DNA from: Rhodothermales bacterium
GTDB taxonomy: Bacteria; Bacteroidota; Rhodothermia; Rhodothermales; JANQRZ01
Direction: 5' to 3'
NCBI GenBank assembly: GCA_965215145.1
Contig: OZ244038.1
Coordinates: forward strand, 3,132,579 to 3,196,578
Length of the DNA: 64,000 nt
The first letter of the stretch is position 1, and each line of letters opens with the position of its first letter. Shown here in pieces: positions 17,701-64,000 of this stretch. A program made the position numbers and the translations under genes. The notes under the pieces were generated by a model. It did not search any database and was not told the origin of the DNA. It worked only from the letters and a program-made list of their open reading frames with translations.

Positions 17701-18843
17701 CCCGTCTACGGCGTGGCCGCCTTCATCGACGTCACCGCGCGGCGCGCGGCCGAGGAGGCGCTGCGCCAGAGCGAGGAGCGCTACCGGCTCCTCTTCGAGG
17801 GCGTCGAGGAGTACGCCATCTTCACCACCGACCCCGCCGGCGCCATCACGACGTGGAACTCCGGGGCCGAGGCCCTCTTCGGCTACCCCGACGCCGAGGC
17901 CCTCGGCCGGCCCGGCGCGATGCTCTTCACGGAGGAGGACCGCGAAGCCGGCGTGCCGGAGCGCGAGATGGCGACGGCGGCCAAGACCGGCACCGCCAGC
18001 GACGACCGCTGGCACGTCCGCCAGGACGGCTCGCGCTTCTGGGCCTCCGGCGTGCTGACGGCGCTCGACGGCGCCGGGGGCGACCTCCGCGGCTTCGCCA
18101 AGGTGCTCCGCGACAACACCCAGCGCAAGGAGGCCGAGGACGCCCTGCGTTGGGCCAAGGAGACCCTCGAGGTGCGCGTGGCCGAGGCGGCGGGGCAGGT
18201 CCGCGAGCTCGCCGCGCGGCTGACGGTCGCCGAGCAGGAGGAGCGCCAGCGCGTCGCGCAGGTCCTCCACGACGACCTCCAGCAGCTCCTCTTCGGCGTC
18301 CAGATGCAGCTCGCCGCCTGCCTCCGCAGCGCCGAGGCGGCCGACCCCGAGGCGCTCGCCGCCGAGGTCCGCCAAGCCGACGCGTGGCTCGACGACGCCA
18401 TCGAGACGACGCGGCGGCTCACGGTGGACATCAGCCCGCCCCTGCTCCAGGGCGAGGGGCTCGCCCAGGCGCTCGAGTGGCTCGTGGCGCAGATGGAGAC
18501 GGTCCACGGCCTCCGCGTCGAGGTCCGCGCCGAGCGGGACCTCCCGATCCCCGGCGACGCCATGCGCATCCTCCTCTTCCAGGTTCTCCGCGAGCTCCTC
18601 TTCAACGTCGTCAAGCACGCCGACACCGACCGCGCCACCGTCACCCTCCACGACGGCGACGGCCTCACGATCACCGTCGCGGACGACGGCGACGGGTTCG
18701 ACCCGTCGGCGGTCGAGGGCGGCACGGGGTTCGGGCTGTTCGGCGCCCGCGAGCGGCTCCGCTTCTTCGGCGGGCGGATGGAGGTCGAGGCCGCGCCGGG
18801 CGAGGGCACGCGCGTGCGGCTCCACGTCCCGCTGCCGGAGTGA
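14716..18843 (+). CDS. Hybrid CheB-methylesterase / CheR-methyltransferase / PAS / histidine kinase sensor protein
   Basis: CheB-like region: IVAGIGASAGGVEAL..., VVIHLSP. CheR-like SAM region: LWVPGCATGEEAYSLAILL, CRNLLIYL. The characteristic coiled coil EELRAANEELQSINEE...ELQTVNNEL is present, followed by several PAS-like repeats. HisKA_3-type H-box: ERQRVAQVLHDDLQQ. HATPase G-box: GTGFGLFGARERL. Confidence 0.9.
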   Translation: MSADDPHPQQGDDAPGDGPRRGSPGENGEASEGAEVASGTKERPIVAGIGASAGGVEALQAFFEAVPEGLGVAFVVVIHLSPEHRSELAAILDRTTHLTVQQVEGTMDLEGDCVYVIPPGRRLEITDTSVGAFPFEEPRGQRAPIDAFFRSLAVQHGDGFGVILTGGGSDGAVGVKAIKEAGGLILVQDPDEAAFDSMPRAAIATEVADLVLPVRDLAARLADLTHTKRRIRETLGTGAPAPLDGDGEEALGRILTHLHARTGHDFSKYKRSTVLRRVGRRMQVHRKETLKDYLAFLRQHVEEAQALFEDLLISVTTFFRDPEAWAALAEAVIPQLFDGLPRSGPEAQEEPLRLWVPGCATGEEAYSLAILLLEEAERRDVWPEVQVFASDLDAGGLATARGGRYPAAIEADLAPERLRRFFVREGDHYRVTKEVRDCVLFAQHSLLRDPPFSRLDLVSCRNLLIYLDRDLQRQVFGILHYALRPGGFLFLGSSEAAEGDYFRTLDKRHRLFQAREATGEPSRLPELLVAAPRLRTPAEHERAHREPPPPRTLHQALLEDLAPPSLVVDERRQVLHLSETAGRFLQPPGGAPTRDATELVRPELRAELRAALFRAFEHDERTLSPFVPVRFNGTPRRVALLVRPRPGEGAGQPRPSGERLALVVFVEGGEAVLGAAEGEVSEEAVQGLQAELRQTQGRMRAAREEHEATVEELRAANEELQSINEEHRSTAEELETSKEELQSINEELQTVNNELKSKLDELARAYGDLENLMVATEIGTLFLDRHLRIQRFTPQVADLFNITLSDRGRPIADFTHRLHYDGLDADARAVLDDLQPVEREVRSEDGRWFLARLRPYRTVEDKIDGVVATFVDVTGRREAEEALRAARHRLEQTLEHLPAGVVLADTAGALVYGNPTVERIFARPFIETGAFEEYGRWPLFRPDADEPFPLDRMPMTRSLTEGVVVTGEEMRVRRPDGSFRHVVVNTAPILGEDGRPVYGVAAFIDVTARRAAEEALRQSEERYRLLFEGVEEYAIFTTDPAGAITTWNSGAEALFGYPDAEALGRPGAMLFTEEDREAGVPEREMATAAKTGTASDDRWHVRQDGSRFWASGVLTALDGAGGDLRGFAKVLRDNTQRKEAEDALRWAKETLEVRVAEAAGQVRELAARLTVAEQEERQRVAQVLHDDLQQLLFGVQMQLAACLRSAEAADPEALAAEVRQADAWLDDAIETTRRLTVDISPPLLQGEGLAQALEWLVAQMETVHGLRVEVRAERDLPIPGDAMRILLFQVLRELLFNVVKHADTDRATVTLHDGDGLTITVADDGDGFDPSAVEGGTGFGLFGARERLRFFGGRMEVEAAPGEGTRVRLHVPLPE

Positions 18844-18886
18844 TGCCGCTCCCCCGGGTCGGTGGTGCCCCCGCGCATTGTAGGGG

Positions 18887-18923
18887 CGGACATCCGGGTC
18901 CGAGGGCGGGCCGCGCTCGGCCC
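18887..18923. terminator. GC-rich hairpins (REP-like) downstream of the kinase gene
   Basis: GTAGGGGCGGAC-ATCCGG-GTCCG (5-bp stem, 18887-18902) is followed by GGGCCG-CGCT-CGGCCC (6-bp stem, 18908-18923), starting about 40 nt after the stop at 18843. There is no U-tract, so terminator function is only inferred. Confidence 0.3.
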
Positions 18924-19059
18924 GTCTTGAGCACTCCCGGAAACCCTCCTTCTCGCTGAGCGGCCGGGGGGGAGGTGAAACGCCGGGACCGAGAATGGGG
19001 GAATCCCGCGTGGGGCTCGGCCGTAACCCCGCCCTCCATCTTTTACCCCTGCCCCCTCC

Positions 19060-19521
19060 GTGTCCGCCCGCGTCTTCCTCGTCGAGGACCACCCCCTCAT
19101 GCTCCAGGCGACGAGCCAGTTCGTCGGGAGCCTCCCCGGCTTCGAGGCCGTCGGCGGCGCCGCCACGGCCGAGGCCGCGCTCGACGCCCTCACCGGGGCG
19201 GCGGCCGGGGCAGCGGATGCCGCGCCCGCCGTGGACGGCCCCGACCTCGTCCTTGCCGACGTGTCGCTGCCGGGGATGAGCGGGATCGAGCTCGTCGCGG
19301 CGCTGCGGGAGCGGCGGCCGGGGCTCCCGTGCCTGATGTTCTCCGCCCACCAGGAGGCGTCCTACGCTGAGCGGGCGCTCGCGGCCGGCGCGCGGGGCTA
19401 CGTCGTGAAGGGCCGGCTGGCGGACCTCGAGGAGGGGCTGCGGACGGCGCTCGCCGGGGAGGTCTACCTCAGCCCACCGCTCCGCGAGAAGCTCCGCGCC
19501 CGCTCCGGGTTCGGGACGTGA
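19060..19521 (+). CDS. Response regulator, receiver domain only
   Basis: VFLVEDHPLM (acidic pocket), LVLADVSLPGMSG (phospho-acceptor Asp) and YVVKG (conserved Lys). No recognisable DNA-binding output domain in the 153 aa. Confidence 0.85.
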   Translation: MSARVFLVEDHPLMLQATSQFVGSLPGFEAVGGAATAEAALDALTGAAAGAADAAPAVDGPDLVLADVSLPGMSGIELVAALRERRPGLPCLMFSAHQEASYAERALAAGARGYVVKGRLADLEEGLRTALAGEVYLSPPLREKLRARSGFGT

Positions 19522-19530
19522 GGCTGGGTG

Positions 19531-19552
19531 GGGGCACGGCGCGCCGTGCCCC
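19531..19552. terminator. Perfect 22-bp GC-rich palindrome between convergent genes (candidate bidirectional terminator / REP)
   Basis: GGGGCACGGCGCGCCGTGCCCC is its own reverse complement. It sits 10 nt after the response-regulator stop (19521) and abuts the TAG of the convergent GH144-like gene (19552-19554). Confidence 0.5.
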
Positions 19553-20868
19553 TACGGCGCCCCGTCGAGCCAGCCGCCGGCGAAGCCGGCCCGCCGGAGG
19601 CCGCGCACGACGGGCGGGCACGCCCGCATCAGCCGCCACACGAGCCCGTCGCGGTAGTTCGCCACCGCCAGCGTGATCGGCCCCTGGTTCAGCGCGAAGT
19701 GGTGCGGCGAGACCCAGCCCAGCTCCGGGTCGCCGTCGGGGAAGGTGGGGTTGAAGGCGTTCTCGAAGCCGTAGCTGTCGTCGCGGCCGGCGTGGGCGTG
19801 GGAGAGGCAGTGGATGCACGTCGTCACGATCTCCGGAGCGAACGGGAGCGAGGCGATGGCGGCCCACGGCGCGATGGTCCCGTCGTCCGGCCCGAACGGG
19901 ACGCCGCGGGCCTTGTACCCGAAGAACCGCCGGCTCCGCCCGCCGACGCGCTCCGTGGCCGGCCCCGGCCCGTCGCTCGCCGTGACCCCCCAGATCTCGG
20001 CGCTGTAGCCCTTGAACCCCTTCGGGTTACGCTTCGCGTACTCCTGCTGGACGTAGGTCGCGCGGCGGCTGTTCTCGAAGTAGTCGATCCCCTTGTCGCG
20101 CATGAACGCGTCCTGGATGCCGCGGAAGTCGACCCAGAGGTGCGAGAACTGGTGGATGAAGAGGGGCCCGGCGTAGAGGTACTCGTGGCCGTAGATCTTC
20201 TTCCAGCGGTACGTCCGGGTGTAGGCGTCGAAGCAGCCGTCCGGCAGCGGGTGCGTGGGCGAGCCGAGGCCGAGGACGTAGAGCAGCAGCGCCTCGTCGT
20301 AGCCGTGCCAGCGGTGGCGGATGAAGCCCTTCTCGGGCTTCCAGCCGTGGGTGACGGCCGGGCCGCCGTTCGTGGCCCAGATCCAGTCGGCGCGGCGGTA
20401 GAGGGCGCCGGCGAGGTGGCGGACCTCGGCCTCGCCGTCCTCGTCGAAGTATTGCGCAGCGACGAGGGCGCCGGCCAGGAGCAGCGTCGTGTCGATCGTC
20501 GAGAGCTCGCTCTGCCAGGCCCGGCGGCCCGTCTCCATGTCGAGGAAGTGGTAGTAGAACCCCTTGTGGCCCGTCCCGTCGGGCGCGCCGTCGTGGGGGG
20601 CCTCGTGGAAGAACCGGAGCGCGGCGAGCGTCCGCGCCCGCGCGTCGTCGCGCGCCATCCACCCCCGCTCGACGGCGACGGGGTAGCCGGCCAGCGCGAA
20701 CCCCACCGCGGCGATGCTGGCCGGGCTCTCGGGCACGGTGCCGTCGCGGACGAGCCCGTTGTCCGGGTTGACCTCCTCCAGGAAGAAGTCGAACGAGCGG
20801 CGGTGAACGTCGTCGAGAAGGGTCTCGCCGATGGGGTGGGAATGATCTCCCGTCGCGGGGTCGGACAT
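19552..20868 (-). CDS. GH144-type 'glucoamylase family' protein (endo-beta-1,2-glucanase family), no signal peptide
   Basis: (alpha/alpha)6-like pattern: SFDFFLEEVNPDNGLVRD, SIAAVGFAL, GFYYHFLDMETG, STIDTTLLLAGAL, YDEALLLYVLGLGS and C-terminal YGFENAFNP. This matches my memory of the PF10091/DUF3131 family, now GH144. The N-terminus MSDPATGDHSH... is not a signal peptide. Confidence 0.65.
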   Translation of the reverse strand: MSDPATGDHSHPIGETLLDDVHRRSFDFFLEEVNPDNGLVRDGTVPESPASIAAVGFALAGYPVAVERGWMARDDARARTLAALRFFHEAPHDGAPDGTGHKGFYYHFLDMETGRRAWQSELSTIDTTLLLAGALVAAQYFDEDGEAEVRHLAGALYRRADWIWATNGGPAVTHGWKPEKGFIRHRWHGYDEALLLYVLGLGSPTHPLPDGCFDAYTRTYRWKKIYGHEYLYAGPLFIHQFSHLWVDFRGIQDAFMRDKGIDYFENSRRATYVQQEYAKRNPKGFKGYSAEIWGVTASDGPGPATERVGGRSRRFFGYKARGVPFGPDDGTIAPWAAIASLPFAPEIVTTCIHCLSHAHAGRDDSYGFENAFNPTFPDGDPELGWVSPHHFALNQGPITLAVANYRDGLVWRLMRACPPVVRGLRRAGFAGGWLDGAP

Positions 20869-51281: not shown

Positions 51282-53792
51282 TCACCCGGAGCCAGCATGA
51301 GGCCGGCGGAACGAGGGCTGGAGGATGGCGAGGCCGACGACGGCGAGCGACGAGAGCGGCATCGCGACGGCCGCGACGAGCGGCGTCACGAGCCCGGCTA
51401 CGGCCGCCGCCGCGCCGGCGGCGTTGTAGGCGAGCGAGACGGCGAGGAGCCGGCGGACCGTCCGCATCACGGCGCGGGCGCCCCCGAGGAGCTCGGCCAC
51501 GGCCGCGACGCCGGGGCGCGTCAGGAACACGTCGGCCGCGACGAGGCTGGCCGTGGCCCCGCCCCCGACGGCGACCCCCACGTCGGCGGCGCGGAGGGCG
51601 GCGGCGTCGTTCACCCCGTCCCCCACCATCAGCACCACGCGGCCCCCGGCCTGGAGCCGCTCGACGGCGGCGCGCTTGCCCTCGGGCGAGACGCCCCCGC
51701 GCGCCCGCTCCGGCGGGAGCCCGAGGCGATGGGCCACGGCGGCGACGGCGGCGGGGTGGTCGCCGGAGAGGAGGTAGACCGCCTTCCCCTCCCCCTCCAG
51801 CGTGCGGATCAGCGGCGCGGCGTCGTCGCGGATCCGGTCGCCGAGGGCGGCGACGCCGGCCCACGTTTTACCTACGAGCACGGCGACGGGGGTGTGGCCC
51901 TCGCCCGCGAACCGGCAGAACGCGGAGCGGAGCTCCGGCGGCGGCTCCCCCTCCGCCTGCTCCGCACACCACGCCAGCCGCCCGACGACGACCGTCCTTC
52001 CAGCCACCTCCCCCCGGACGCCGCTCCCCGCGACGGCCTCGAACCGCTCGACGGGGAGCACGCTCGGGTCGGCGACCTGCGCCCGCACGAGCGCGGCGGC
52101 AACGGGGTGATTCGAGTGGGCCTCGAGTGCGGCGGCGAGCCGGAGCGCCTCGGCGTCGCCGGCCCACTCGACGAGCGCCATCTGGCCCTCGGTGAGGGTG
52201 CCGGTCTTGTCGAGCACGACGGCGTCCACGTCGGTCAGCCGCTGCGTGGCCTCGTCGGTCTTGACGAAGAGGCCGGCGCGCGCGGCCCGCCCGGCGGCGA
52301 CGGCCATCGCCAGCGGCGTCGCCATGCCGAGGGCGCAGGGGCAGGTGATGACGAGCAGCGCGGCGACGTGGAAGGCGGCCCGGCTCGGGTCGAGCCAGAG
52401 CCACAGCGCGGCCGTGACGGCGGCGAGCACGAGCACGCCGAGGACGAATACGCCCCCGAGCCGGTCGGCGAGGAGCACGACGGGGGCGCGGCGGTCGGCC
52501 TCGCGGACCCACGCCAGCAGCCGTCCCACGCGGGTCGCCTCCCCGACGGCGTCGGTGCGGACGCGGAGGGGGGCTTGCAGGTTCGTCGCGCCGGCGGCCA
52601 CGCGCGCGCCCTCGGCGGCGGGCACGGGCCGGGCCTCCCCCGTCAGCACGGCGTTGTCGAGCCGGCTTTCTCCCCGCACCACGACGCCGTCCACGGGGAC
52701 GACCTCGCCGGCCGGGACCTCAACCACGTCCCCCGGCTGAAGCTCGTCCTGCCGGATGACCTCGACGGTGCCGCCCTCCCCCACCCTCCGGGCCATCGTC
52801 GGGACGAGCGTGAGGAGCCGCTCGGCGGCCTCGCCGGCGAGGCGGCGGCTGCGGAGCTGGAGGTACCGCGCCGTCAGCAGCGCGGCGACGAGGACGGCCA
52901 CGGAGTCGAACCAGACCTCGCCGCGGCCGGTCACCGTCGCCCACGCGCTGTGGCCGAACCCGACGGCGACGCCGAGCGCGATGGGGGTGTCCATGTGGAG
53001 CCGCCGGCCGTCGCGGGCGCGAACGGCGGCGCGGACCGACGCCCACGCCCGCCGGAAGAACGGGGCGGCGCCGTAGCCGACGGCCGGGACGGTGAGGGCC
53101 AGCGAGGCCCACCGCGCCGCCGTCGCCATCGGCCCGCCCGCCACGTCGAGCCCGGAGTAGAGCGCGAAGGCGACGAGCATCACGTTCCCCGCCAGCGCCC
53201 ACGCAACGCCAAGCCGGACGAGCAGCCGCCGCTCGGCCTCCGTCCGCCGGCCCAGCGCCTCGGAGCGCGCCGGCCGCGCGGCGTACCCGAACCGGGCCAG
53301 CCACGCCGCCACGGCCGAGAGCCGGACGCGCGCGGGGTCGAACGTCAGCGCGAGCCGGGCGCGGGGGAGGTCGAGCCGGGCGCCCGCCACACCCTCCATC
53401 TCAAAGGGCAGCCGCTCGACGAGCCACACGCACGCGGCGCAGTGGACGCCGTCCACGAAAAGCTCGCACGCGCGGAGGCCGCCGTCGGCGGGCCGCGTCT
53501 CTTCTTCCAGGAACCGCGCGGTGTCGAGCTCGGCGAGCTGGAGCGCGTCGGGCGCCGCGGGCCGCGCGGCCGGACGCTCGCGGCCCACGGCGCGGAGGCG
53601 GTAGAAGGTCTCCCCGAAGCCGGCCGAGCCGAGCGCCTCGTGGACGACGGCGCAGCCCGTGCAGCAGAACGCCCCGGTGTTCTGCAAGACGGGCGCGGGG
53701 CCGACGGGGAGGCCGCAGTGCGCGCACGGCGTCTCCGGCGCGGCCCGTGCGATGCTCGGCGGCCGGGCGGTATCGGCCACGGCCGCGCTCAC
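51282..53792 (-). CDS. ccoI: Copper-translocating P1B-type ATPase CcoI/FixI
   Basis: CAHCGLPV and FCCTGCAVVHE (N-terminal metal motifs), a CPC transmembrane motif, DKTGTLT (phosphorylation site), and GDGVNDAAAL. The GTG start at 53792 overlaps the upstream stop (GTGA). The track ORF extends to 53915. Confidence 0.9.
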   Translation of the reverse strand: MSAAVADTARPPSIARAAPETPCAHCGLPVGPAPVLQNTGAFCCTGCAVVHEALGSAGFGETFYRLRAVGRERPAARPAAPDALQLAELDTARFLEEETRPADGGLRACELFVDGVHCAACVWLVERLPFEMEGVAGARLDLPRARLALTFDPARVRLSAVAAWLARFGYAARPARSEALGRRTEAERRLLVRLGVAWALAGNVMLVAFALYSGLDVAGGPMATAARWASLALTVPAVGYGAAPFFRRAWASVRAAVRARDGRRLHMDTPIALGVAVGFGHSAWATVTGRGEVWFDSVAVLVAALLTARYLQLRSRRLAGEAAERLLTLVPTMARRVGEGGTVEVIRQDELQPGDVVEVPAGEVVPVDGVVVRGESRLDNAVLTGEARPVPAAEGARVAAGATNLQAPLRVRTDAVGEATRVGRLLAWVREADRRAPVVLLADRLGGVFVLGVLVLAAVTAALWLWLDPSRAAFHVAALLVITCPCALGMATPLAMAVAAGRAARAGLFVKTDEATQRLTDVDAVVLDKTGTLTEGQMALVEWAGDAEALRLAAALEAHSNHPVAAALVRAQVADPSVLPVERFEAVAGSGVRGEVAGRTVVVGRLAWCAEQAEGEPPPELRSAFCRFAGEGHTPVAVLVGKTWAGVAALGDRIRDDAAPLIRTLEGEGKAVYLLSGDHPAAVAAVAHRLGLPPERARGGVSPEGKRAAVERLQAGGRVVLMVGDGVNDAAALRAADVGVAVGGGATASLVAADVFLTRPGVAAVAELLGGARAVMRTVRRLLAVSLAYNAAGAAAAVAGLVTPLVAAVAMPLSSLAVVGLAILQPSFRRPHAGSG

Positions 53793-60395: not shown

Positions 60396-61904
60396 TTAGG
60401 AGACGGGGATCTCCTTGGCGGGCGTGGCCGCTACGGCGGGCACGGCGACGGCGGGGTCGGGGAGGTCCTTCGGCGCGCGGCGGACGGTCTGCCACACGTT
60501 CACCATCATCAGGACCACGCCGCCGAGGTACATCGTCCCGCCGATGAGCCGGACCCAGTACATCGGGCGGATCTGGATGACGGTCTCCATGAAGTCGGGG
60601 TAGAGGAGGCGGCCGGCGTCGTCGAAGGCCCGCCACATCAGCCCCTGCGTCACGCCCGAGGTGTACATCGCCAGCACGTAGAGGAGGATGCCGATGGTGC
60701 CCGTCCAGAAGTGGGCGTTCGCCAGGCGGTCGCTCCACAGCGGGCGCCGCCACAGCCGCGGCACGAGCCAGTAGATCATCCCGAACGTCATGAACCCGTT
60801 CCAGCCGAGGGCGCCGGAGTGGACGTGGGCGATGTTCCAGTCGGTGTAGTGGCTGAGCGCGTTGACCGTCTTGACCGAGAGCGTCGGGCCCTCGAAGGTC
60901 GCCATGCCGTAGAACGTGATCCCGACGACGAACATCTTGAGGACCACGGAGTCGCGGAGCTTGTGCCACGCGCCGCGGAGCGTGAACAGCCCGTTGATCA
61001 TCCCCCCCCACGACGGCATCCAGAGCATCACGGAGAACACCATCCCGAGCGTGGCGGCCCACTCCGGGACGGCGGTGTAGTTGAGGTGGTGCGGGCCGGC
61101 CCAGATGTAGATGAAGACGAGGCTCCAGAAGTGCACGATCGAGAGCCGGTACGAGAACACCGGGCGCTCGGCCGCCTTCGGGAGGAAGTAGTACATCAGC
61201 CCCAGGAACGGCGTCGTCAGGAAGAAGGCGACGGCGTTGTGGCCGTACCACCACTGCACGAGCGCGTCCTGCACCCCCCGGTAGATGGGGTACGAGTTCC
61301 AGAGCCCCGAGGGGATCGCCATCGAGTTGCCGATGTGGAGCACGGCCACCGTCACGATGGTGGCGATGTAGAACCACAGCGCGACGTACATGTGCTTCTC
61401 GCGCCGCCGCCAGAGCGTCCCGAAGAAATTGACCGCGAAGGCCACCCACACGACGGTGATGGCGACGTCGATGGGCCACTCGAGCTCCGCGTACTCCTTG
61501 CTCGTCGTGATGCCCAGCGGGAGCGTGATGGCGGCGGCGACGATGATGGCCTGCCAGCCCCAGAAGTGGAACCGGCTCAGCCCGTCGGAGAACATCCGCG
61601 CCTTGCACAGCCGCTGCGTGCTGTAGTAGATCGCCGCGAAGATGGCGTTGCCGGCGAAGGCGAAGATGACGGCGTTGGTGTGGAGCGGGCGGAGCCGGCC
61701 GAACGAGAGGTACGGGCCGAGGTTGGCCTCGGGGAACGGGAGCTGCAGCGCGATGACCACGCCGACGAGCATCCCGACGAACCCCCACAGGATGGTCGCG
61801 AGCGTGAAGTGCCGGACGATCCGGTCGTCGTAGCGGAAGACGTCGAGCGCGGGCCGCGGCGCTGCCTGGGCAGCGGCAACGGCAGCGACGGGGGGTTCGG
61901 CCAT
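60396..61904 (-). CDS. ccoN: cbb3-type cytochrome c oxidase subunit I (CcoN)
   Basis: 12-TM haem-copper oxidase pattern: [28 protein letters not shown], and [17 protein letters not shown]. Confidence 0.95.
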
Positions 61905-62024
61905 CGGGCGGGGGGCGTGGGTGGGGTGATAGCAGCCAAGCTCCCCGCCCCCACGGTTCTGCGGTGACGGCCCGACCCCGCCGGCCCGGCCGGGCCGCTC
62001 CGCCCGCGGCTGTGGGGGCGTTCC

Positions 62025-62243
62025 CTACGCCGGGATCGCCGTGCTCGACCGGACGCCCGGCCGCCGCGCCATCTCGGCCGACGCGGCAGCCAGCGCCTCG
62101 GCGCTCTTGACCTCGATGAGCGCAACCGCCTCGCGGCGCCACAGCTCCAGCGTGGTGACGACCAGCGACGGCAAGCGCAGCGCGCTGATGGCGGAGCGGA
62201 GGTCAGCCTCGGACTCGAACTCGACGGCAAGGAAACCAGTCAT
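62025..62243 (-). CDS. Hypothetical small protein upstream of ccoN
   Basis: The ATG at 62243 within track ORF 62025..62315 gives MTGFLAVEFESEADLRSAISALRLPSLVVTTLELWRREAVALIEV... (72 aa). The composition is plausible, but no family is recognised. Confidence 0.35.
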   Translation of the reverse strand: MTGFLAVEFESEADLRSAISALRLPSLVVTTLELWRREAVALIEVKSAEALAAASAEMARRPGVRSSTAIPA

Positions 62244-62468
62244 GGCAAGGAGGGTCGTTGGGTCCGACTCCGAGCATCGGACCGTTCCCCGGCCGCCGCT
62301 AGCGGGACCACCCACGCCGCTGCGGCAGGGAATCCCCCACAGCCCTCCCGTTCAGTCTGCGCCCTCGCCCTCGACCCAGCGCACGGCGTGCTGCTGCATC
62401 ACTTATGAGTGACACGAAGGATGTCACCATGACGTGCTTATCGTAGCTCCCTACCATCCTGACTTGCC

Positions 62469-64000
62469 ATGCCCTCAGACCTTAGTTACTCCTCCGATGC
62501 CCCTCTCACGACTAGAGAGGGCGACCTGTTTGATCGGTGGCCGTTCGCCGAGCGCGTTGCTCACGTCCTTCGTAACCGGCGTGAGGCGTCAAGTTTAGTC
62601 ATCGGACTATACGGGACATGGGGAGAGGGCAAGACTACTCTTCTCAATTTCATTGAGGAGGCGCTTGAGGATGCTGAGAACGTAGTCGTCGTGCGCTTCA
62701 ACCCGTGGCGATTCGGCAATGAGTCAGCACTGATCCGAAGCTTCTTCGACGCGCTTGCGACTGCCGTAGGCGGGAAGTTGACAACAAGCAAGGAAGATTT
62801 CGCTTCGACTATAGTAAAGTATGCCGGAGCCGTGTCGCTGGGAGGGTTCGGCGTCGATATTGACCCCGCGAGCGCGGCTCAGGTTCACGCTGAGGTTGAT
62901 CTTGAGAAGCTGCGTGACCGACTCACCACCATCCTTCATGAGGCCGACTTGCGGGTCGTGGTTCGCATAGATGATATCGACCGCCTCGACAAGGACGAGG
63001 TACAAGCTGTATTCCGCCTCGTGAAGTTGTCAGCCGACTTCGAAAACGTTGCGTACGTGTTGGCATTCGACCCCGACGTGGTGGCCGCGGCGCTCCAAGA
63101 GCGATATGGACCAGGTCAGCCAAGGGCAGGATACGACTTCCTAGAAAAAATCGTGACGGTCCCATTGCAGATCCCACCCGCTCGCCTACAGTCTCTCTTC
63201 AACTTAAGTCTCGCTGCAATCGAAGAAGCCCTTAGTCTGTCAGGCTTGGACATTTCTGATGATAAGTACCACTTTGTGAATGCATTTAGACTAGGACTCC
63301 TCCCAGCCATGAGGACACCGAGAATGGCGAAGCGATATGGAAATGCTGTTCGCTTCGCGCTACCTATTCTGGCTGGTGAGGTTAATGTATCGGATCAACT
63401 TCTCATTGAGGGCATGCGGGTTATGTATCCAAGGCTCTATGATCACGTTCGTTCTCATCCAGAGATCTATTTGCGAAATGAACCTGATAGTTACATAATA
63501 TCACGCACCAAAGAGGGAGAGGACGAACGTCTCTGCTCTATCGAAGCCGTCATTTCCGAACGAGTGACCCAACACTCTGTAGCGGCATCTCGATTGCTCA
63601 ACCATCTCTTCCCTCAAGTATACGATCGAGGCACTAATGGAGATCCTCGCAAGGATCAGAGAGTCGCCTCGGATTGGTACTTCGAACGCTTTTTCAATTA
63701 TGCTGTTCCCTCCGACTCCATCGCGGATCGGGCACTCGCAGAGGCCATATCGATCGCCGAGAGCGGTGACCTGCCGAGATGCATAGAGCATTTACGCTCT
63801 CTGTTAAGAGAGTCAACCGAACAGCGCCTTGTCGAGATGCTGCACATTCGTGCTGACTCTGTGCCACAGGTTGCAATTCCGACACTCAGCCGTGCTATCG
63901 CTTCGATATCGGATGGCTTGTTGGCCCAGCATCGCTTCTTCCATTTCTCAACTGAGAACACAGCAGCAGCGGCAGTATGTTCCATGATTCAGCGAGTCGA
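62469..64000 (+). CDS. KAP-family P-loop NTPase (partial; runs off the right edge)
   Basis: Not in the ORF track because no stop is reached. My translation from the ATG at 62469 is open to the window end: MPSDLSYSSDAPLTTREGDLFDRWPFAERVAHVL..SSLVIGLYGTWGEGKTTLLNFI (Walker A, G.WG.GKT), FNPWRF, and LRVVVRIDDIDRLDKDEV (Walker B, DD.DR), then FDPDVV... Codon usage is A/T-rich, unlike the rest of the window. Confidence 0.8.
   Translation, partial: MPSDLSYSSDAPLTTREGDLFDRWPFAERVAHVLRNRREASSLVIGLYGTWGEGKTTLLNFIEEALEDAENVVVVRFNPWRFGNESALIRSFFDALATAVGGKLTTSKEDFASTIVKYAGAVSLGGFGVDIDPASAAQVHAEVDLEKLRDRLTTILHEADLRVVVRIDDIDRLDKDEVQAVFRLVKLSADFENVAYVLAFDPDVVAAALQERYGPGQPRAGYDFLEKIVTVPLQIPPARLQSLFNLSLAAIEEALSLSGLDISDDKYHFVNAFRLGLLPAMRTPRMAKRYGNAVRFALPILAGEVNVSDQLLIEGMRVMYPRLYDHVRSHPEIYLRNEPDSYIISRTKEGEDERLCSIEAVISERVTQHSVAASRLLNHLFPQVYDRGTNGDPRKDQRVASDWYFERFFNYAVPSDSIADRALAEAISIAESGDLPRCIEHLRSLLRESTEQRLVEMLHIRADSVPQVAIPTLSRAIASISDGLLAQHRFFHFSTENTAAAAVCSMIQRV

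What the first reader, a model, noticed from the sequence alone, without database searches (positions are those of the whole stretch)
62390..64000. Abrupt GC drop marks a probable horizontally acquired island opening with a KAP-family NTPase gene absent from the ORF track
Up to about 62.39 kb the sequence has strong G/C third positions. From about 62.40 kb on, the two 60-nt lines I counted are about 43% and 57% GC. Codons such as TTA, ATA, AAA and AGA appear there. A >510-codon open frame (62469 to the edge) carries the KAP Walker A (GTWGEGKTT) and Walker B (IDDIDRL) motifs.

KAP NTPases are typically found in mobile or accessory regions and next to phage-defence genes. The island begins directly upstream of the conserved cbb3 operon. 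No tRNA or integrase is visible within the window, so the rest of the system, if there is one, lies to the right of the window.
Basis: partly seen in the sequence, partly recalled or inferred. Interest (0 to 1): 0.65.

Follow-up and report, generated by a model that had tools for sequence, protein, structure and literature searches.

The report
Foreign PifA-like anti-phage NTPase gene
The last 1.6 kb of the window is recently imported low-GC DNA that starts inside a truncated host regulator gene next to the cbb3 oxidase operon and encodes a distant full-length relative of PifA, the F-plasmid phage-exclusion protein; this is a real but fairly ordinary accessory defence gene.

Summary
GC falls from 73.6% to 53.2% at a change point at 62,397. 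The open frame from 62,469 has GC3 of 0.56, against 0.92-0.98 in host genes, and CAI of 0.16 against 0.76 (z = -7.7).

The frame is the first 510 codons of a 715-aa protein (P0001). It matches KAP_NTPase (E = 2e-49) and has intact Walker A and B motifs. Its best defence-model hit is PifA (219 bits). A profile-profile comparison with the genuine F-plasmid PifA clade aligns 660 columns (probability 100%, E = 1e-42), so the homology is full-length but distant (18-25% identity). No transmembrane helices are predicted, as reported for PifA.

About 75 family loci show no conserved partner gene. Many lie next to R-M, pAgo, TIR, Septu or Gabija genes and integrases. It is "absent from the ORF track" only because the ORF runs off the window.

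New here: the foreign DNA begins inside a conserved FixJ/NarL-type response-regulator gene, leaving a 48-nt 3' stub (62353-62400). Close relatives have that regulator intact upstream of ccoN and no KAP gene there. The nearest KAP homologue (62% identity, native GC) abuts the same regulator in another Rubricoccaceae lineage.

The right end lies outside the window, so island size is unknown. Verdict: new member of a known kind, modest interest.

The parts
60396..61904 (-). Host ccoN (cbb3 oxidase subunit I), first large gene of the ccoNOQP-ccoG cluster. It serves as the native-composition reference flank.
   Evidence: ORF; GC3 0.984; 88-92% identical to Rubricoccaceae/Rhodothermales CcoN.
62025..62243 (-). 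Small host ORF (72 aa from the ATG at 62243) between the regulator stub and ccoN. Function unknown.
   Evidence: GC3 0.918. A homologue lies immediately upstream of ccoN in the closest relative L010 (50% identity over 44 aa, E = 1e-6). Only a sub-threshold Pfam hit.
62353..62400 (-). 3' stub of a FixJ/NarL-type (receiver + GerE HTH) response-regulator gene: the last ~15 codons plus the stop, encoding ...QHAVRWVEGEGAD*. It is a candidate att-like or crossover sequence.
   Evidence: blastn match of L012 2727-2763 to window 62356-62392, 92% identity. Alignment A4 shows collinearity with the regulator 3' ends of L012, L013, L099, L098 and L009 up to ~62400. L098's C-terminus is QHAVRWVEGEGAG*.
62397..62404 (.). 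Breakpoint: homology to the regulator gene ends and GC content changes.
   Evidence: Maximum-likelihood change point at 62397; alignment A4 loses homology after ...GTGCTGC.
62401..62468 (+). 68-nt low-GC leader of the foreign gene. It contains the perfect palindrome GTGACA-N7-TGTCAC (62409-62427) and an in-frame TGA at 62460-62462.
   Evidence: Read from the sequence. No sigma-70-like promoter or terminator was found. The leader is not similar to the L012 upstream region, because blastn similarity starts exactly at the start codon.
62469..64000 (+). First 510 of 715 codons of a PifA-like KAP-family P-loop NTPase (P0001). The gene continues to about 64616, beyond the window.
   Evidence: AF2 model has pLDDT 89 and pTM 0.80.
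62613..62636 (+). Walker A (P-loop), GTWGEGKT, aa 49-56.
   Evidence: W51, G52, G54 and K55 are invariant in 114 family members.
62955..62987 (+). Walker B, VVVRIDDIDRL, aa 163-173.
   Evidence: Sequence. D168, D169, D171 and R172 are invariant in the family.
63354..64000 (+). Start of the family-specific all-helical C-terminal module (aa ~296-715; only aa 296-510 are in the window). It is homologous to the C-terminal module of F-plasmid PifA.
   Evidence: Secondary structure. Invariant and nearly invariant residues extend to aa 698. hhalign covers columns 12-687. No Pfam domain is found there.

Best explanation
The sequence from ~62,400 to the window edge is recently imported DNA of about 53% GC in a 73.6% GC Rubricoccaceae (Rhodothermales) chromosome. 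It entered at, or replaced, the body of a FixJ/NarL-type response-regulator gene that normally lies upstream of the cbb3 oxidase genes. Only a 48-nt 3' stub of that gene remains.

Its first, and possibly only, gene encodes a 715-aa soluble KAP-family P-loop NTPase that is a full-length distant homologue of F-plasmid PifA. The most likely function is a stand-alone, single-protein anti-phage system.

Inferred mechanism, by analogy with PifA and with experimentally tested KAP fusions: the conserved helical C-terminal module recognises a phage protein. NTP binding and hydrolysis at the Walker A/B site (K55; D168/D169) then drives a conformational or oligomeric switch, since ring-forming RdrA and AAA+ initiators are its nearest structural relatives. 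The activated protein halts infection, probably by compromising the membrane or energy state as PifA does.

Shown here: foreign composition, exact left junction, family membership, intact motifs, confident fold, absence of a conserved partner, and frequent defence-island context. Inferred: defence activity, trigger, effector step, and the size of the insert.
For: Foreign origin: the GC, GC3 and CAI breaks. There is no KAP homologue at the ccoN locus of relatives L009, L010 and L011 by tblastn or in the gene tables of L098 and L099. Family members in general sit about 5 GC points below their flanks, and the window's -20 points is more extreme than any of the 49 loci compared.

Junction: the regulator stub is collinear with five relatives up to ~62400.

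Identity: Pfam KAP_NTPase scores 168.7 bits against a cutoff of 20. PADLOC PifA scores 219 bits and covers model positions 4-670 of 720, far above QatA at 62 bits. hhalign against the true PifA clade gives probability 100%, E = 1.2e-42 and 660 columns. Length is similar (715 vs 741 aa) and no TM segments are predicted in either protein.

Intactness: all 31 family-invariant residues are present in P0001. The AF2 model has pLDDT 89.

Stand-alone status: no neighbour family is shared by more than 3 of ~75 loci, and neighbour orientation is mixed.

Defence context: a type I R-M operon (L002); MmeI-type enzyme, Mrr, SLFN and integrases (L003); MmeI-type enzyme and GmrSD (L007); UmuDC, ArdC and RadC (L005). 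Among 145 neighbours there are pAgo, TIR, PtuA, GajB, type I, IIG and III R-M, Mrr and resolvases.

Literature: PifA aborts T7 infection through membrane depolarisation and nucleotide leakage, triggered via gp1.2 and gp10 (PMC13001434, PMC8594841). KAP NTPases fused to uncharacterised C-terminal regions protect against phage and require both Walker B and the C-terminal region (PMC13552941).
Against: Identity to F PifA is only 18-25%, and BLASTP aligns only the NTPase half. There is no pifC-like repressor; host DNA lies upstream.

No member of this sub-family has been tested. F PifA has a very narrow phage range, and its status as a dedicated immunity gene has been questioned (PMC8594841). The tested Enterococcus KAP protein did not behave as abortive infection (PMC13552941), so the effector step may differ.

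Many family loci lie next to ordinary housekeeping genes. The gene's last 205 codons and everything downstream are outside the window, so a partner specific to this locus cannot be excluded. No promoter was recognised, though the scan does not cover Bacteroidota-type promoters.
Confidence: 0.7

Rival explanations
1. The KAP gene is only the distal cargo gene of a larger mobile element (integrative island, ICE or prophage) that integrated site-specifically into the 3' end of the response-regulator gene. The integrase, the other cargo and an intact regulator copy would lie to the right of the window. This is a rival about the size and mechanism of the insert, and it is compatible with a defence role.
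For: The left junction is a short 3' gene stub, which is the classic footprint of integration into the 3' end of a gene with att duplication. Homologues lie near integrases in L003 and near resolvases. Defence genes are often island cargo (general knowledge).
Against: No integrase, tRNA or repeat is visible in the window. In L012, the nearest homologue at the same regulator is a one-gene islet between an outer-membrane-protein gene and the regulator. No exact match was found among IMG/VR proviruses, and no relative was found in 50,697 phage genomes.
Confidence: 0.35
2. The protein is the ATPase subunit of a multi-gene defence system, either Qat-like (QatABCD) or RADAR-like (RdrA/RdrB), whose partners lie just beyond the window.
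For: QatA models give secondary hits (PADLOC 62 bits, NCBIfam 72.6 bits). The best PDB fold matches are RdrA rings.
Against: NCBIfam QatA scores 72.6 bits against a cutoff of 600. No PADLOC RdrA hit appears at E <= 1e-3. TM-scores to RdrA are only 0.24-0.30. No conserved downstream partner exists in ~75 family loci, and the downstream neighbour is often convergent.
Confidence: 0.07
3. The gene is a horizontally acquired KAP NTPase with a role other than defence, for example regulating assembly of a protein complex, or a selfish or addiction function.
For: The original KAP analysis proposed regulation of membrane-associated complexes (cited in PMC13552941). The BASEL authors question whether PifA evolved as an immunity gene (PMC8594841). 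Many family loci are flanked by housekeeping genes.
Against: Defence and mobile-element genes recur among the neighbours. Four diverse KAP fusion proteins were experimentally protective (PMC13552941). The patchy distribution and low GC relative to flanks are typical of defence genes.
Confidence: 0.15
4. The region is not foreign: a native gene with unusual composition, or an assembly chimera at a contig join.
For: The nearest homologue (62% identity) sits beside the same regulator in a related lineage, which could suggest old residence at this locus.
Against: A native gene in this genome would be expected to have GC3 above 0.9, as the L012 copy does (0.898), not 0.555. CAI is 7.7 sd below host genes. 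The protein is recorded on a single 3.67-Mb contig. The break falls inside a conserved gene with a clean stub, which indicates recombination and not drift.
Confidence: 0.03

Closest known systems
PifA of the E. coli F plasmid (phage inhibition by F; PADLOC PifA, DefenseFinder Pif)
   Same: Both have an N-terminal KAP P-loop NTPase and a ~400-aa helical C-terminal module. Lengths are 715 and 741 aa, and neither has predicted TM helices. Profile-profile homology covers ~90% of both proteins, including shared C-terminal motifs such as R-x-x-S-x-x-Y-[FW]-x-R-Y-F.
   Different: Identity is only 18-25%, and the PifA HMM scores 219 bits against 963 for F PifA. There is no pifC repressor. The gene is chromosomal in a Rhodothermales bacterium, not on an enterobacterial plasmid. 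The T7 gp1.2/gp10 trigger cannot be assumed.
Experimentally validated KAP NTPase fusion defence proteins (EF_KAP and three gut-metagenome proteins; PMC13552941)
   Same: Each is a single polypeptide with a KAP NTPase plus an uncharacterised C-terminal region with no known fold relative. They are found beside mobile or defence markers. Walker B and the C-terminal region are both required in EF_KAP.
   Different: EF_KAP is modelled with two TM helices, whereas P0001 has none.
QatA of the QatABCD system
   Same: It is a KAP-family ATPase and gives secondary HMM hits.
   Different: The score is far below the family threshold (72.6 vs 600 bits), and no QatBCD-like partners appear in family loci.
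RdrA of the RADAR system (PDB 8hr8, 8hra, 8fnw, 8fnu)
   Same: It is the best structural match in PDB: an ATPase core plus a helical C-terminal region, aligned over 760-930 columns. RdrA forms heptameric rings in a defence complex.
   Different: TM-scores are 0.24-0.30 with rmsd ~20 A and 11-12% identity. There is no sequence-level hit and no RdrB partner.

Membership tests
KAP family P-loop NTPase (Pfam PF07693) | Match to the KAP_NTPase model above the gathering threshold | tested here: met
   168.7 bits against a cutoff of 20, E = 2.3e-49, aa 25-295 covering model positions 3-287 of 293 (window fragment).
KAP family P-loop NTPase (Pfam PF07693) | Walker A GxxGxGK[ST] and Walker B hhhhDD-h-DR motifs | tested here: met
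   GTWGEGKT at aa 49-56 and VVVRIDDIDRL at aa 163-173. These residues are invariant in 114 relatives.
KAP family P-loop NTPase (Pfam PF07693) | Insert between Walker A and B that carries transmembrane helices in many members (absent in PifA) | tested here: not met
   A helical insert is present (aa ~85-158, with a low-confidence loop at 123-140). No 19-residue window reaches Kyte-Doolittle 1.6 (maximum 1.22), the same as for F PifA at 1.27. The PifA branch is reported to lack TM helices (PMC13001434), so this does not exclude membership.
PifA (F-plasmid phage exclusion protein) | Best-scoring defence model is PifA, with near full-length coverage | tested here: met
   PDLC02361 scores 219 bits, E = 3.3e-65, aa 6-626 on model positions 4-670 of 720. 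The next best is QatA at 62 bits. The curated PADLOC threshold was not available.
PifA (F-plasmid phage exclusion protein) | Homology of the C-terminal module as well as the NTPase domain to genuine PifA | tested here: met
   hhalign of A1 against A3 (33 genuine PifA-clade proteins) gives probability 100%, E = 1.2e-42 and 660 aligned columns, 12-687 against 15-729. Pairwise BLASTP aligns only aa 22-325 at 25% identity.
PifA (F-plasmid phage exclusion protein) | pifC-pifA operon organisation (repressor gene immediately upstream) | tested here: not met
   F has pifC directly upstream of pifA. In the window, the upstream DNA is a 68-nt leader followed by the host regulator stub. No conserved upstream partner exists in the family.
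PifA (F-plasmid phage exclusion protein) | Abortive exclusion of T7-like phage, triggered by gp1.2/gp10, with membrane depolarisation | not testable with these tools
   Known for F PifA only, from the literature (PMC8594841, PMC13001434).
QatA (QatABCD system) | Score above the NCBIfam NF041923 equivalog cutoff, plus QatB/C/D neighbours | tested here: not met
   72.6 bits against a cutoff of 600. No recurring partner in ~75 family loci. The downstream DNA of the window itself is unseen.
RdrA (RADAR) | Sequence match to RdrA models and an adjacent RdrB deaminase | tested here: not met
   No PADLOC RdrA hit at E <= 1e-3. Only remote fold similarity, TM 0.24-0.30.
Horizontally acquired genomic island | Compositional and codon-usage break relative to the host | tested here: met
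Horizontally acquired genomic island | Absent from the same locus in related genomes | tested here: met
   L009 (R. marinus), L098 and L099 have the regulator and ccoN without KAP. A related but native-GC KAP gene is present beside the regulator in L012 and L013.
Horizontally acquired genomic island | Both ends defined, with flanking direct repeats and an integrase or other mobility gene | not testable with these tools
   The right end lies beyond the window. The source contig was not retrievable. Only the left stub at 62353-62400 is seen.

The most novel reading that the evidence does not exclude
The 3' end of the FixJ/NarL-type regulator upstream of the cbb3 oxidase genes may be a lineage-specific hotspot where PifA-like genes are exchanged as one-gene cassettes. 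The mechanism would be Campbell-type recombination through the ~45-nt conserved regulator tail.

This would explain two things: why the two most similar family members known (62% identity, but 53% vs 69% GC) both abut this regulator in different Rubricoccaceae lineages, and why the window carries a duplicated-looking stub.

It predicts a ~2.3-kb insert ending at an intact regulator gene that carries the same 45-48-nt repeat. Alternatively, the insertion destroyed the oxygen-responsive regulator and rewired cbb3 expression.
Probability: 0.2. Interest if true: 0.45.

Novelty: new member of a known kind. Interest (0 to 1): 0.27.

Why it matters
It adds a clear, datable example of recent cross-lineage import of a PifA-type single-gene defence candidate into a very high-GC marine Bacteroidota-related (Rhodothermales) genome, with the left junction resolved to a few bases inside a conserved regulator gene.

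The wider family is large: 8,846 clusters at 50% identity match at E <= 1e-30. It is conserved over its full length, has no solved structure and no tested member outside the enterobacterial PifA clade. A confident model and a defined set of invariant residues make it a reasonable target for mechanistic work on how KAP NTPases sense phage.

The gene itself, however, is an ordinary accessory defence-type gene, and nothing about it challenges current understanding.

Tried and rejected
1. Retrieving the source contig to see the right end all failed. Exact look-ups of CcoN and of P0001 found nothing. The GTDB genome scan returned only a 37%-identical Rhodothermaceae MAG. An exact 50-mer search in IMG/VR found nothing. 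No look-ups remained for the other near homologues, P0002 and P0003.

2. A tRNA or ncRNA integration target at the junction: none found.

3. Terminal direct or inverted repeats within 61.9-64 kb: only chance-level matches. A second copy of the regulator stub in the window or in other loci: none.

4. Promoter and terminator scan of the junction: nothing. The scan does not cover Bacteroidota-type promoters.

5. A plasmid or phage origin for the DNA: no blastn match in 72,556 plasmids and no tblastn match in 50,697 phages. Plasmid-borne relatives exist but at <= 37% identity. Only 4 relatives were found in 2.9 million viral contigs.

6. A solved structure for the family: none by sequence, and only remote AAA+/RdrA fold matches. 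The viral fold library gave only a giant-virus KAP protein.

7. A conserved partner gene: rejected.

8. QatA or RdrA identity: rejected.

9. A separate fold search of the C-terminal module alone was considered but not run. The full-length Foldseek list showed no C-terminal-only hit better than E ~ 1e-2.
Full report
**1. Observation**

The compositional break is real and sharp. Positions 1-62390 are 73.6% GC and 62391-64000 are 53.2%. In the whole 64 kb, the only 500-nt windows below 62% GC start at 62201 or later. Host 500-nt windows have mean 0.7365, sd 0.031 and minimum 0.644. The foreign segment lies 5.7-7.2 sd below that mean, and a two-segment likelihood fit puts the change point at 62397.

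Third-position GC is 0.92-0.98 in ccoN, ccoO, ccoG and the small ORF next to the junction, but 0.555 in the open frame. A codon-adaptation index trained on 29 host ORFs gives 0.159 for the frame against 0.764 +/- 0.078 for host genes (z = -7.7). TTA, ATA, AGA, GAT and AAT are 10-130 times enriched.

The frame 62469-64000 is open for 510 codons and starts two codons after an in-frame TGA. It is missing from ORF listings only because ORFs that run off the end of the source are not listed.

**2. What the gene is**

A homology search returned the full-length product, P0001: 715 aa, recorded on a single 3.67-Mb contig. The gene would therefore end about 616 nt beyond the window.

- Pfam KAP_NTPase matches at 168.7 bits against a cutoff of 20.
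- Walker A (GTWGEGKT, aa 49-56) and Walker B (VVVRIDDIDRL, aa 163-173) are intact and invariant across 114 relatives.
- Among defence models the best hit is PifA: 219 bits covering model positions 4-670 of 720. QatA scores ~62 bits and PDC-S20 ~33 bits.
- NCBIfam QatA scores 72.6 bits against a cutoff of 600.

I retrieved F-plasmid PifA, the 741-aa protein next to pifC. BLASTP aligns only the NTPase half, at 25% identity and E = 4e-20. To test the C-terminal half, I built a profile of the genuine PifA clade (33 proteins at 40-99% identity) and compared it with the profile of the window's family. The result was probability 100%, E = 1.2e-42 and 660 aligned columns spanning 12-687 against 15-729 of 764. 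The protein is therefore a full-length but distant (18%) PifA homologue.

Neither it, F PifA nor seven relatives has a predicted TM segment. This agrees with the literature statement that PifA lacks the TM helices of other KAP proteins (PMC13001434).

**3. Structure**

AlphaFold2 with the 114-sequence alignment gave a confident model: pLDDT 89 and pTM 0.80. It shows an alpha/beta NTPase core with a helical insert (loop 123-140 disordered), followed by about 25 helices and one small beta-hairpin region.

No PDB sequence matches. The best fold matches are the RdrA rings of the RADAR defence system, then Cdc6/ORC/DnaA/RFC-type AAA+ proteins. All are remote (E ~ 1e-4, TM 0.2-0.3). The viral library adds only a giant-virus KAP protein. 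No C-terminal-only match appeared, so that module has no known structural relative.

**4. Family and contexts**

The family is large. An exhaustive profile search finds 8,846 representative clusters (50% identity) at E <= 1e-30 and 35,510 at E <= 1e-3, out of 1.84 billion. Conservation extends over the whole length.

Contexts of the nearest homologues are typical defence or mobile regions:
- L002: a complete type I R-M operon and YgjP directly upstream, and a SACS/NOV_C giant protein downstream.
- L003: an MmeI-type enzyme, Mrr, SLFN/AlbA, two integrases and RadC.
- L005/L006: a second KAP NTPase, UmuDC, ArdC and RadC.
- L007/L008: an MmeI-type methyltransferase and GmrSD.

I added 80 metagenomic and 4 viral-contig loci, called genes locally and clustered all neighbours within 8 kb. 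No neighbour family is shared by more than three loci, and the immediate neighbours are often convergent or divergent. The gene therefore behaves as a stand-alone unit.

A bulk scan of 145 nearest neighbours found type IIG, I and III R-M, DrmMI-like, pAgo, TIR, PtuA, GajB, OloB, Mrr and resolvase proteins. It also found clear housekeeping genes.

Family members are on average 4.5-5 GC points below their distal flanks (24 of 49 are more than 5 points lower). The window's -20 points is more extreme than any of the 49 loci compared. No homologue occurs in 50,697 phage genomes. Plasmid-borne relatives exist at <= 37% identity.

**5. The junction (new)**

The host is a Rubricoccaceae/Rhodothermales bacterium. 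Its CcoN is 88% identical to that of Rubricoccus marinus and >= 90% identical to several MAG proteins.

In close relatives, a PAS-HisKA_3 kinase and a receiver-GerE response regulator lie upstream of ccoN on the same strand: L099 (regulator stop ~157 nt from ccoN), L098 and L009. None has a KAP gene there.

The contig carrying the closest KAP homologue (P0004/L012; 62% identity over 708 aa; GC3 0.90) has the orthologous regulator (72-81% identity) convergent with KAP, with overlapping stop codons. An outer-membrane-protein gene tail lies on the other side, so this is a one-gene islet.

In the window, 62356-62392 matches the 3' end of that regulator at 92% identity. A six-sequence alignment shows collinearity from the regulator's stop codon (62353) to about 62400, after which homology ends exactly where GC collapses. 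The stub encodes ...QHAVRWVEGEGAD*, against ...QHAVRWVEGEGAG* in L098. The window has no orthologous regulator, only a 27-40% identical paralogous pair at ~17.7-19.6 kb.

The foreign DNA therefore begins inside a conserved regulator gene, not in neutral intergenic DNA.

Two readings remain:
- Integration by recombination within the regulator tail, either site-specific or Campbell-type through the ~45-nt conserved segment. This duplicates the tail and leaves an intact regulator at the unseen right end. The L012 arrangement makes a ~2.3-kb one-gene insert plausible.
- Illegitimate insertion or replacement that destroyed the regulator, and perhaps the kinase.

The small 72-aa ORF and ccoN to the left are host genes.

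**6. Mechanism**

What is shown: an intact, conserved P-loop NTPase with a conserved PifA-type C-terminal module, stand-alone, horizontally mobile, and often located in defence islands.

What is inferred from F PifA and from tested KAP fusions:
- F PifA is triggered through T7 gp1.2 and gp10 and causes membrane depolarisation and nucleotide leakage (PMC8594841, PMC13001434).
- Tested KAP fusions require both Walker B and the C-terminal region (PMC13552941).
- By analogy, the C-terminal module senses a phage component, and the NTPase drives a switch, possibly oligomerisation as in its nearest structural relatives. Infection is then arrested, most likely through the membrane or energy state.

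I rate the identity and foreign origin at ~0.9, a defence role at ~0.65, and a PifA-like membrane-abortive effector step at ~0.35.

**7. Comparison and novelty**

This is a new member of a known kind: the PifA branch of KAP NTPases. It fails the pifC-operon feature of F Pif and is too distant to assume the same trigger. It is not QatA or RdrA.

The points of modest interest are the extreme compositional contrast, the base-level junction inside a regulator next to the cbb3 operon, and the fact that the closest known homologue abuts the same regulator in another lineage, which hints at a local hotspot.

**8. Limits**

The right end and the last 205 codons are outside the window, and the source contig could not be fetched. 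Gene calling in the metagenomic loci was a simple longest-ORF heuristic. Defence-context counts are descriptive and were not tested against a background rate.

Noticed in passing
window 53003-53086 (-): ARAGORN calls an 84-nt tRNA-Glu(TTC) with the anticodon at position 30. Rfam at gathering thresholds finds no family, tRNA included, anywhere in the window. The call is probably a false positive or a very aberrant tRNA.
   Followed up: partly
window 62409-62427: A perfect palindrome, GTGACA-N7-TGTCAC, lies in the 68-nt low-GC leader about 40 nt upstream of the KAP start codon. It could be an operator for a regulator, but it was not compared with other family leaders.
   Followed up: no
window 17752-19569: A paralogous PAS-kinase and GerE response-regulator pair, 27-40% identical to the pair that flanks ccoN in relatives. 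It might compensate if the ccoN-linked regulator was destroyed.
   Followed up: partly
L010 1-154 (closest CcoN relative, 92% identity): The metagenomic contig ends right at the homologue of the small 72-aa ORF, at the position where the foreign DNA begins in the window. An assembly break there could mean a variable or repeated segment in that organism too.
   Followed up: no
L009, L098, L099: between the response regulator and ccoN: The segment between the regulator and ccoN holds zero to about eight unrelated genes in different relatives (YceI x2, Usp, Na+/H+ exchanger, peptidase S8 and others). This interval is variable even without the KAP gene.
   Followed up: partly
L005 10001-12158 and L006 2466-4623: In two independent assemblies the 64%-identical KAP homologue is split into overlapping 542-aa and 186-aa ORFs, which suggests a frameshift or pseudogene. 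It sits divergently next to a second, weakly matching 831-aa KAP NTPase.
   Followed up: no
L003 6365-9883, L007 3222-6635, L027 182-2917: An MmeI-type (type IIG / BREX PglX-like) methyltransferase-restriction enzyme is the immediate upstream neighbour of the KAP gene in three otherwise unrelated loci. This is the only recurrent neighbour seen and a possible functional pairing.
   Followed up: partly
Protein cluster P0241 (F-plasmid PifA, 2,596 member sequences): NCBI names this 741-aa KAP NTPase 'exclusion suppressor FxsA'. To my knowledge FxsA is a different, small membrane protein that suppresses F exclusion, so this looks like a propagated misannotation of PifA.
   Followed up: no
window 61905-62024: The ccoN-to-small-ORF spacer is extremely GC-rich (80-85% per 60 nt) with nested GGCC/CCGG-rich repeats and an 18-nt imperfect hairpin at 61906-61950. 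It was not examined further.
   Followed up: no
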